Source: a virus (taxonomy: Duplodnaviria > Heunggongvirae > Uroviricota > Caudoviricetes). Taken from it: a stretch of 64,000 nt of DNA. A program made the translations under genes and the position numbers. The notes under the pieces were generated by a model. The model saw nothing but the letters and a program-made list of their open reading frames with translations, was not told the DNA's origin and made no database searches. How positions within the stretch are numbered: the stretch's first letter is position 1; every line of letters begins with the position of its first letter. This document shows, in pieces, positions 28,011 through 28,756 of the stretch. The stretch lies in the IMG/VR virus record IMGVR_UViG_2877948078_000003. One strand, written 5' to 3'.

Positions 28011-28046
28011 GCCAGTCCATTCCGGTAACTGGCGGCTTTTTTATCA
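28011..28046 (+). terminator. Plus-strand terminator-like hairpin
   Basis: CCGCCAG..CTGGCGG stem followed by CTTTTTTAT. Confidence 0.4.
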
Positions 28047-28481
28047 TGCCGCAGTGTCTGTGCTGTTCACTTCCACCGCAATGCTGTCAATCAGCAGCGT
28101 ATACGTCGCCGATTTTGATATATCGGTCAGTTGCAGTTTGTCCACCGCCCCCGATGCCGGTGACTTCACCAGTGTGAACGCCGCTCCCCGTTTCTCATCC
28201 AGTACTGGTGTCACCTGAATGCTGTTGTTTCCGGCAAACTCAAAAGCCAGCGTGTGCCATCCGTTATCAAAGACCCCGAATGTATCCAGCTTCGCATTCG
28301 GCTTCCTGTGATGCATCGCGTTCAGGTTCGTCGTATCCGTCTGCAGGAAGAAAGACATCAGCATATCGTTACCTTCTCCTGACAGCGTCACCCCCTCCGG
28401 CAGGGACGACAACTGCCAGTAAATGCCCAGGGCAAACTGATTCGGCACCAGTGAACCCGGCAACTTAAACCGTACGCTCAC
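28044..28481 (-). CDS. Hypothetical beta-rich protein, possibly the 3' fragment of a late-region gene cut by the Mu-like insertion
   Basis: 145-aa ORF upstream of S; the open frame continues upstream to a TGA inside the putative Mu-like terminus; no Cys, so not a Q antiterminator. Confidence 0.45.
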   Translation of the reverse strand: MSVRFKLPGSLVPNQFALGIYWQLSSLPEGVTLSGEGNDMLMSFFLQTDTTNLNAMHHRKPNAKLDTFGVFDNGWHTLAFEFAGNNSIQVTPVLDEKRGAAFTLVKSPASGAVDKLQLTDISKSATYTLLIDSIAVEVNSTDTAA

Positions 28482-28756
28482 ACGTCCGCCCTTCTTCAGT
28501 AACTCCTGTAACCAGGTGAATCATTTGATACCAACGAGGGTTTTAGTGAAAGGAGGTGAAATCACCTGTAAGATACTGAAATAAAACAGGTGATGTCTGG
28601 ATGAGCGCTTAAAGTCTATTTGATACCGATTGTGCAATAATTAATCGTTTATTCTAAAATCGGCAAAACTTTTGATACTGCGATCTCAACTTTTTAAAGC
28701 GTTTAAAACTTCATTAAATCTATATGGCAACTAACATACGGGCCAGCCTCGCCAAA

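What the first reader, a model, noticed from the sequence alone, without database searches (positions are those of the whole stretch)
28044..28523. ORF upstream of S may be the C-terminal fragment of a gene cut by the Mu-like insertion
The 145-aa ORF starts at a GTG, but its frame stays open upstream (..FTWLQELLKKGGR-VSVRFKL..) until a TGA at 28521-28523, inside the putative Mu-like terminus. The product is beta-rich and Cys-free, so it is not a Q antiterminator. EHEC lambdoid prophages are reported to carry large esterase (nanS-p-type) genes at this position, so this could be a remnant of such a gene; that is conjecture.
Basis: partly seen in the sequence, partly recalled or inferred. Interest (0 to 1): 0.4.

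Follow-up and report, generated by a model that had tools for sequence, protein, structure and literature searches.

The report
Orphaned tail of a split esterase gene
The 145-aa ORF is not a gene but the last 153 codons of a known prophage sialic-acid esterase gene (nanS-p type), split by a Mu-like prophage insertion; this is an ordinary, recent pseudogene fragment.

Summary
Homology to an intact 654-aa lambdoid-prophage esterase (DUF1737 + SASA + DUF6645, the NanS-p type) runs from the holin side up to window 28506 and stops there. Over the 1048 nt from 28506 through the holin gene there is one mismatch. From 28507 the sequence is the left end (TGTAACCAGG...) of an Sp18-like Mu prophage, which sits at many different sites in other E. 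coli genomes.

The window keeps codons 502-654. The GTG "start" at 28481 is internal Val510. The upstream TGA lies in Mu DNA.

The window is 100% identical, over the two stretches compared, to GenBank CP031892.1 (E. coli O113:H21 FWSEC0011). In that record the Mu-like element is 38,881 bp long. On its far side, outside the window, lie esterase codons 1-502 on the same strand, flanked by a 4-bp duplication (GGAG).

The fragment has no catalytic domain. It also lacks about 64 residues of the crystallised C-terminal jelly-roll domain (PDB 6YP6), so it is most likely inert.

This is already known biology and of low interest. Side notes: the Mu-like element carries its own esterase paralogue, and it makes 4-bp rather than 5-bp target duplications in all four insertions examined.

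The parts
28044..28506 (-). 3' remnant of a nanS-p-type (SASA family) esterase gene: the last base of codon 501, codons 502-654 and the stop. It contains the whole Pfam DUF6645 region but not the first ~64 residues of the crystallised jelly-roll domain.
   Evidence: 99.85% colinear with the STEC17-190 prophage (L001:6001-12707); 1 nt difference (28144, A622V); Pfam; PDB 6yp6 chain residues 66-218.
28044..28481 (-). The 145-aa GTG ORF as listed. It is an ORF-finder product; the GTG is the internal Val510 codon of the intact gene.
   Evidence: No gene is called between the holin and the Mu repressor in the source record's gene calls. The exact product is not on record.
28503..28506 (.). Left copy of the 4-bp target-site duplication (CTCC on +, GGAG in gene orientation). 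The right copy lies outside the window at window-equivalent 67388-67391.
   Evidence: Right junction in L018...CGCCGCGCTATA|CTCCGCACCC; left junction ...AACTCC|TGTAACC.
28507..28523 (-). Mu-derived bases that extend the open frame (FTWL and part of Q) and supply the TGA that closes it.
28507..64000 (+). Sp18-like Mu-type transposable prophage: left end TGTAACCAGGTGAATC..., repressor, Ner, MuA, MuB ... Gin. It runs off the window; the full element is 38,881 bp in CP031892.1 and ends at window-equivalent 67387.
   Evidence: Pfam Mu-transpos_C, HTH_Tnp_Mu_1, Phage-MuB_C, HTH_35, Resolvase. The same left end sits at many different loci in >100 E. coli genomes. Right end in L018.
27459..27674 (-). 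Class II holin (S) of the lambdoid prophage, immediately downstream of the fragment. It is now separated from Q and the late promoter by the Mu-like element.
   Evidence: PF04971.
26487..27454 (-). Lysozyme (26921-27454) and Rz-type lysis protein (26487-26924) of the same late operon.
63096..64000 (+). 5' part of a second esterase gene of the same kind, carried inside the Mu-like element. It has SASA + DUF6645 but no DUF1737, is 680 aa in the source record, and is 67% identical to the split one.

Best explanation
The ORF is the orphaned 3' end (codons 502-654) of a lambdoid-prophage nanS-p-type sialate O-acetylesterase gene. An Sp18-like Mu transposable prophage (38.9 kb) inserted by transposition between codons 501 and 503 and duplicated 4 bp (GGAG). 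The 5' part (codons 1-502: DUF1737 capsid-binding domain, the complete SASA catalytic domain and the start of the C-terminal domain) stays on the Q/late-promoter side, 38.9 kb away and outside the window. There it reads 36 codons into the Mu right end. The 3' part in the window has no catalytic domain, no promoter or start of its own, and lacks about 64 residues of the jelly-roll lectin-like domain, so it is most likely an inert pseudogene fragment. The GTG is Val510 and the upstream TGA is Mu DNA. The insertion is recent, because the flanking sequence is nearly identical to uninterrupted copies. Shown: the breakpoint, both halves, the duplication and the domain content. Inferred: that the fragment is not expressed or does not fold; that the lysis and morphogenesis genes downstream are now uncoupled from Q-dependent late transcription; and that the 5' product may still be an active esterase.
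For: Lambdoid homology ends at 28506 and Mu-like homology starts at 28507. The intact genes are 654 and 657 aa with DUF1737 + SASA + DUF6645. The fragment equals residues 502-654 with one substitution. PDB 6yp6 (NanS-p C-terminal domain) aligns its residues 66-218 to the fragment, and 3pt5 (NanS) aligns to residues 71-392 of the intact protein. In the reference prophage the gene lies between Q and the holin. Window 19728-41818 and 52436-64000 are 100% identical to CP031892.1, and the exact MuA protein occurs on that contig only. In that record the far flank begins CTCC and continues with the reverse complement of esterase codons 501 down to 1, then the HTH and tolA-like genes. This is colinear with the reference prophage at 99.6%. 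The 5' ORF is open for 502 esterase codons plus 36 Mu codons. No promoter-like site was found on the minus strand between 27400 and 29800. Sp18-type Mu prophages are reported to be active and to occupy strain-specific sites (PMC7430833, PMC2669165).
Against: Nothing contradicts the split-gene reading. Three inferred steps are open. (1) The Mu repressor gene (28757-29362) is on the same strand as the fragment, and only a weak terminator-like hairpin (28765-28738) separates them. A GAAGGG stretch lies 8 nt upstream of the GTG, so some transcription and translation of the fragment cannot be excluded. (2) The Pfam DUF6645 model is fully contained in the fragment, so the claim that it cannot fold rests on the limits of the crystal construct and on a low-confidence model (pLDDT 55). 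(3) No expression data exist here.
Confidence: 0.96

Rival explanations
1. The ORF is an independent small gene encoding a stand-alone DUF6645 lectin-like protein that starts at GTG 28481.
For: The Pfam DUF6645 model is complete within it, and a weak Shine-Dalgarno-like GAAGGG lies upstream.
Against: Homology to the 654-aa gene continues 8 codons upstream of the GTG, exactly to the Mu end. The GTG is internal Val510. The short database homologues of high identity are labelled 'partial' by their source. No gene is called here in the source record. The 5' half of the same gene is on the other side of the Mu element.
Confidence: 0.01
2. The fragment is a remnant, but it is still expressed. Read-through of the constitutive Mu repressor transcript out of the left end, with re-initiation at GTG 28481, would give a truncated carbohydrate-binding protein with some activity.
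For: The repressor gene and the fragment are on the same strand and 250 nt apart. Only a weak terminator-like site lies between them. Three of the four aromatic positions of the proposed sugar-binding site (Y510, Y515, Y540 in phi24B numbering; PMC10462455) are aromatic in the fragment (F, Y, F; alignment).
Against: An in-frame TGA precedes the ORF, so no fusion is possible. About 64 residues of the crystallised beta-sandwich, predicted to hold 4-5 strands, are missing. The fourth aromatic position (F611) falls in a gap. There are no expression data.
Confidence: 0.04
3. The truncation arose by deletion or rearrangement (for example a Mu-mediated deletion or inversion, or recombination with the Mu-borne paralogue) rather than by a simple insertion.
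For: Inside the window the only other esterase-like sequence (63434-63961) is on the opposite strand at 81% identity. Before the far flank was seen, this could have suggested a rearrangement.
Against: That copy is standard cargo of Sp18-like elements in many genomes. The true 5' half is on the far flank, in the same orientation, with a 4-bp duplication and colinear upstream genes.
Confidence: 0.01

Closest known systems
NanS-p prophage sialate O-acetylesterases (z1466/L0105 of phage 933W; vb_24B_21 = gp84 of phage phi24B)
   Same: The reconstructed gene has the same three-domain layout (DUF1737, SASA, C-terminal DUF6645 jelly-roll). It holds the same position between Q and the holin in a lambdoid late region. 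It matches PDB 6yp6 (NanS-p C-terminal domain) and 3pt5 (NanS) strongly.
   Different: In this genome the gene is split. The window holds only codons 502-654, with no catalytic domain. The C-terminal domain is a divergent type, about 59% identical to the phi24B/Stx-phage type, with a gap at the F611 position. The host prophage is lambda-like in its head and tail genes and carries no stx in the region seen.
Chromosomal NanS (YjhS) of E. coli K-12, PDB 3pt5
   Same: It is homologous to residues 71-392 of the intact prophage protein (E=1.4e-115).
   Different: NanS has no DUF1737 and no DUF6645 domain. Nothing in the window fragment is homologous to NanS.
Sp18, the Mu-like prophage of E. coli O157:H7 Sakai, and its relatives
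   Same: The inserted element has MuA, MuB, Ner, Gin, Com and Mom and is about 38.8-39.2 kb. It sits at strain-specific sites, as reported for Sp18 and Phi804-3 (PMC7430833), and it carries WP_010917876-type esterase cargo.
   Different: This particular insertion site (inside nanS-p of the lambdoid prophage that occupies the ompW site in STEC17-190) was not found in 5,426 complete E. coli genomes or in the three contig collections. The exact MuA protein is on record for one contig only.
Bacteriophage Mu
   Same: It transposes into essentially random sites. The left end begins TGTA, both ends carry repeated GGTATCAAA-type motifs, and it has an invertible tail-fibre segment with Gin.
   Different: The target duplication is 4 bp in four independent insertions (Mu: 5 bp, established knowledge). 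The right terminus ends ...TATA rather than ...CA.

Membership tests
NanS-p (prophage sialate O-acetylesterase) | SASA/SGNH catalytic domain homologous to NanS | tested here: not met
   It is absent from the window ORF, where only DUF6645 is found. It is present in the intact homologue (residues 71-392 vs 3pt5; PF03629) and in the 5' half on the far flank of the source genome. The split gene was therefore a member, but the fragment alone is not a functional one.
NanS-p (prophage sialate O-acetylesterase) | N-terminal DUF1737 domain | tested here: not met
   It is not in the window fragment. It is present at residues 3-50 of the intact homologue, and those residues are unchanged in the far-flank 5' half (no substitution before residue 66).
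NanS-p (prophage sialate O-acetylesterase) | C-terminal lectin-like jelly-roll domain (DUF6645; PDB 6yp6) | tested here: met
   Pfam DUF6645 covers positions 1-119 of 119, E=4.7e-42. 6yp6 residues 66-218 align with E=2.3e-52. The first ~64 residues of the crystallised construct are missing.
NanS-p (prophage sialate O-acetylesterase) | Location in the lambdoid late region between Q (or stx) and the holin S | tested here: met
   The holin is directly downstream in the window. Q is 6.7 kb upstream in the colinear uninterrupted prophage. The far flank of the source genome is colinear with that prophage as far as it was read, to L001:398, which stops short of Q.
NanS-p (prophage sialate O-acetylesterase) | Neu5,9Ac2 de-O-acetylation activity | not testable with these tools
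   This needs an enzyme assay. The activity is known for EDL933 and O104:H4 alleles (review PMC8065619).
Mu-like transposable prophage (Sp18 type) | MuA transposase and MuB ATPase next to a repressor/Ner switch at the left end | tested here: met
   PF09299, PF02316, PF09077 and PF13693.
Mu-like transposable prophage (Sp18 type) | The same element at unrelated sites in different genomes, interrupting genes | tested here: met
   Left ends abut vasI, comEC, bcsA, mhpD, tauA, prophage genes and others.
Mu-like transposable prophage (Sp18 type) | 5-bp target-site duplication and TG...CA termini, as in Mu | tested here: not met
   The duplications are 4 bp: CTCC (this insertion), AATT (comEC) and CGTG (bcsA; intact site verified), and AGAA (mhpD). 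The left end starts TG and the right end finishes TA. The element works like Mu but differs in this detail.

The most novel reading that the evidence does not exclude
The Mu-like insertion may do more than kill a gene; it may re-wire the lambdoid prophage. It leaves a 538-aa esterase (capsid-binding plus catalytic domains, with no lectin domain) under Q control. It puts 38.9 kb of antisense Mu DNA between the late promoter and the holin, lysis, head and tail genes, so induction would give esterase without lysis or particles (a 'grounded' prophage). It also brings in a second, intact esterase paralogue. A weaker variant is that the orphan lectin-domain fragment is expressed from read-through of the Mu repressor transcript.
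Probability: 0.3. Interest if true: 0.25.

Novelty: already known. Interest (0 to 1): 0.1.

Why it matters
It matters little beyond correct annotation. The ORF should be marked as the 3' part of a disrupted nanS-p gene, not as a hypothetical protein. It is a clean, recent example of one active prophage (Mu-like) transposing into the late operon of another (lambdoid) in an O113:H21 STEC strain. This bears on counts of functional nanS-p alleles per strain and on whether that lambdoid prophage can still lyse its host or form particles.

Tried and rejected
1. Exact-pattern scans for the predicted right junction and for the observed left junction in genome contigs, viral contigs and metagenome contigs gave 0 hits each. 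The source assembly is not in those collections. My right-junction pattern also carried one SNP relative to the source (GCCCCC vs GCACCC).

2. An exact look-up of the 145-aa product, with V or with M as first residue, found nothing on record.

3. CP031892.1 is not in the annotated collections. The E. coli genome collection holds only assemblies at level 'complete genome', and this one is at level 'Chromosome' (PMC6787312).

4. An AlphaFold model of a 268-aa homologue covering the whole C-terminal region had a mean pLDDT of only 55. I used it only as weak support for beta strands upstream of the breakpoint and ran no fold search.

5. An Rfam scan of the whole window found no family at gathering score, so no known RNA lies in the 370-nt spacer between the fragment and the holin.

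6. PADLOC found no match for the fragment.

7. I considered that the plus-strand esterase-like sequence at 63434-63961 might be the displaced 5' half after an inversion. I rejected this because it is normal cargo of the Mu-like element.

8. The protein search returned only fragment clusters and no full-length entries. Lengths of intact homologues were taken from annotated genomes instead.

Full report
**Observation**

The ORF at 28044..28481 on the minus strand starts at GTG and encodes 145 aa with no Cys. Translating 28041-28526 (-) gives K*FTWLQELLKKGGRVSVRFKL.... The frame is therefore open for 13 codons above the GTG and is closed by the TGA at 28521-28523.

**What the ORF is**

- The 158-aa open frame matches Pfam DUF6645 over the full profile (E=4.7e-42).
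- It matches the solved C-terminal domain of NanS-p, PDB 6yp6, at chain residues 66-218 (E=2.3e-52).
- tblastn against phage records places it inside genes annotated as yjhS 9-O-acetyl-N-acetylneuraminic acid deacetylase or acetylesterase in several hundred Stx and other lambdoid phages, at about 59% identity.
- megablast against complete E. coli genomes finds copies at 99-99.9% identity. These lie at the 3' end of genes annotated as SASA family carbohydrate esterase or DUF6645 domain-containing protein.
- Two such genes were inspected and are 654 aa (STEC17-190) and 657 aa (FORC_043).
- The 654-aa protein has DUF1737 (residues 3-50), SASA (80-276) and DUF6645 (504-617). It matches NanS/YjhS (PDB 3pt5) over residues 71-392 and 6yp6 over 464-649.

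**The breakpoint**

- Homology to the uninterrupted prophage of STEC17-190 runs at 99.85% from window 21800 to 28506 and stops there.
- Homology to an element found in more than 100 E. coli genomes starts at 28507. That element sits next to unrelated genes such as vasI, comEC, bcsA, mhpD, tauA and prophage genes.
- A four-way alignment shows the junction directly. The window shares ...GGTATCAAATGATTCACCTGGTTACA with the element's ends in two other genomes, and GGAGTTACTGAAGAAGGGCGG... with the intact esterase gene.
- The element encodes MuA (Mu-transpos_C, HTH_Tnp_Mu_1), MuB (Phage-MuB_C), a Ner-type HTH and a Gin-type invertase. It is of the Sp18 type, known from O157 Sakai and reported to be active and to sit at strain-specific sites (PMC2669165, PMC7430833).
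- The window keeps the last base of codon 501, codons 502-654 and the stop.
- The GTG at 28481 is the codon of internal Val510.
- Of the 13 upstream codons, ELLKKGGR are esterase codons 502-509. FTWL and two bases of the Q codon are Mu DNA, as is the TGA.
- From the breakpoint through the holin gene (1048 nt) there is a single difference from STEC17-190. It is at 28144 and changes A622 to V. The insertion is therefore recent.

**The other half**

- In related genomes the element is about 38.8-39.2 kb, so its right end lies beyond the window.
- Inside the window, the only other esterase-like DNA (63434-63961, plus strand, 81% identity) belongs to a paralogue that is normal cargo of the Mu-like element.
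- Pattern scans of three contig collections for either junction found nothing.
- A look-up of contigs encoding the window's exact Gin protein returned ten places. One of them, L018 (GenBank CP031892.1), is 100% identical to window 52436-64000.
- The window's exact MuA protein is on record for that contig only. L021 from that record equals window 19728-41818 exactly.
- The window is therefore CP031892.1:2697804-2761803. This is E. coli O113:H21 strain FWSEC0011, stx2d, bovine, Canada 2004 (PMC6787312).
- In L018 the Mu-like right end (...CGCCGCGCTATA) is followed by CTCCGCACCCTGTCC..., which is the reverse complement of esterase codons 502, 501, 500 and so on.
- The flank stays colinear with STEC17-190 at 99.6% through the rest of the gene and the upstream HTH and tolA-like genes.
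- The 5' ORF is open for 502 esterase codons and then runs 36 codons into Mu DNA, 538 aa in all.
- Both flanks carry GGAG, so this is a simple transposition with a 4-bp duplication.
- The element is 38,881 bp long, and the 5' half lies at window-equivalent 67388-68893 on the minus strand.

**How it works (or does not)**

In the uninterrupted prophage the gene lies about 6.7 kb downstream of Q and directly upstream of the holin. This is the position described for nanS-p in Stx phages (PMC10462455).

Published work gives the following picture of NanS-p:

- NanS-p enzymes remove O-acetyl groups from Neu5,9Ac2 and from mucin glycans, and let lysogens grow on these substrates (review PMC8065619).
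- The C-terminal domain is a lectin-like jelly-roll proposed to bind carbohydrate (Franke et al. 2020, as cited in PMC10462455 and PMC8065619).
- The DUF1737 domain binds the capsid in phi24B, and the C-terminal domain is removed by proteolysis (bioRxiv 10.64898/2026.04.10.717836).

The window fragment has neither the catalytic nor the capsid-binding domain. Using the aromatic residues Y510, Y515, Y540 and F611 as register marks, the fragment starts at phi24B residue 487, while the crystallised domain starts at 423 (PMC10462455). About 64 residues are therefore missing. A low-confidence model places 4-5 beta strands in that missing stretch.

No promoter-like site was found on its strand nearby. 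No gene is called there in the source record. I infer that the fragment is inert.

Two caveats apply. The Mu repressor gene is on the same strand 250 nt upstream, with only a weak terminator-like hairpin in between. A GAAGGG stretch also precedes the GTG. Low-level expression is therefore not excluded.

Two further inferences follow. The holin, lysozyme, Rz, terminase, head and tail genes (window 1-27674, colinear with STEC17-190) are now cut off from Q-dependent transcription by 38.9 kb of Mu DNA read in antisense. The 5' product, which holds the whole NanS-homologous region, may still be active.

**Comparison and novelty**

Every component is known: the nanS-p gene family, its position in the prophage, its domain structure, and Sp18-like Mu prophages that jump to new sites. 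The particular insertion appears unique to this strain among the data searched. It is nonetheless an ordinary gene disruption. Interest is low.

**Side observations**

- The Mu-like element carries an esterase paralogue without DUF1737, followed by DUF1378 and DUF826 genes. This set is otherwise typical of the lambdoid Q-S region.
- Four independent insertions of the element show 4-bp, not 5-bp, duplications and a ...TATA right terminus.
- The lambdoid prophage carries a Beta_protein/PD-Lambda-2_C-like gene and a neighbouring gene that matches a PADLOC model between Rz and the terminase.

Noticed in passing
window 63096-64000 (+), continuing outside; L018:10661-13316: The Mu-like prophage carries its own NanS-p-like esterase (680 aa in the source genome, SASA + DUF6645, 67% identical to the split gene). 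It has a different N-terminus with no DUF1737. It is followed by DUF1378 and DUF826 genes, a module otherwise typical of the lambdoid Q-to-holin region. The insertion therefore breaks one esterase allele and delivers another.
   Followed up: partly
window 28503-28507; L018:14945-14956; L003:6088-6100 with L004:436-440; L005/L006; L009/L010: Sp18-like Mu elements show a 4-bp target duplication in four independent insertions: CTCC, AATT, CGTG and AGAA. For bcsA the empty site was verified in thousands of genomes. A 5-bp duplication as in Mu is excluded in three of the four. The right terminus ends ...GCGCTATA (TA, not CA), although both ends carry TTTGATACC at the same distance from the tip.
   Followed up: partly
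window 24441-25508 (+) and 25450-26070 (-): Between the Rz gene and the small terminase gene, the lambdoid prophage carries a converging gene pair. One is a 355-aa Beta_protein (PF14350) that matches PADLOC PD-Lambda-2_C and 'beta'. The other is a 206-aa protein annotated sce7726 family that matches PADLOC 'cll' (Pfam Phage_P4_cII in precomputed hits). This is possibly anti-phage defence cargo.
   Followed up: partly
window 60430-62430; L011-L020 around 8000-9900: The Gin-adjacent tail-fibre region is found in both orientations among otherwise near-identical elements. The Caudo_TAP gene is on + in L011, L013, L016, L018 and L020, and on - in L012, L014, L015, L017 and L019. This fits an invertible G-type segment. 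The window has the tail fibre assembly gene on + (61431-61952) and a short alternative fibre C-terminus on - (61987-62226).
   Followed up: no
L011-L020 around 13900-15150 (outside the window): The right-end modification module of Sp18-like elements comes in two forms: Com + Mom (245 aa, PF25680), or Com + a 350-aa DNA cytosine methyltransferase (PF00145). The source genome has Mom.
   Followed up: no
L015 (AP026747.1, 112-kb contig): One copy of the Mu-like element is flanked by TraG_N and TraT genes, so it appears to be inserted in a conjugative plasmid.
   Followed up: no
whole window: The window corresponds to GenBank CP031892.1:2697804-2761803 (E. coli O113:H21 FWSEC0011, stx2d, bovine). 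Window 1-28506 is the late half of a lambda-like prophage colinear with the ompW-integrated prophage of STEC17-190, and the rest is the Mu-like prophage. The assembly is at level 'Chromosome', which explains why it is missing from the complete-genome collection.
   Followed up: yes
window 27675-28043 (-): A 370-nt spacer without ORFs or Rfam matches lies between the esterase stop and the holin start. A GC-rich hairpin (GCCGCCAGT...ACTGGCGG) comes right after the stop codon. The spacer is conserved at 100% with STEC17-190.
   Followed up: partly
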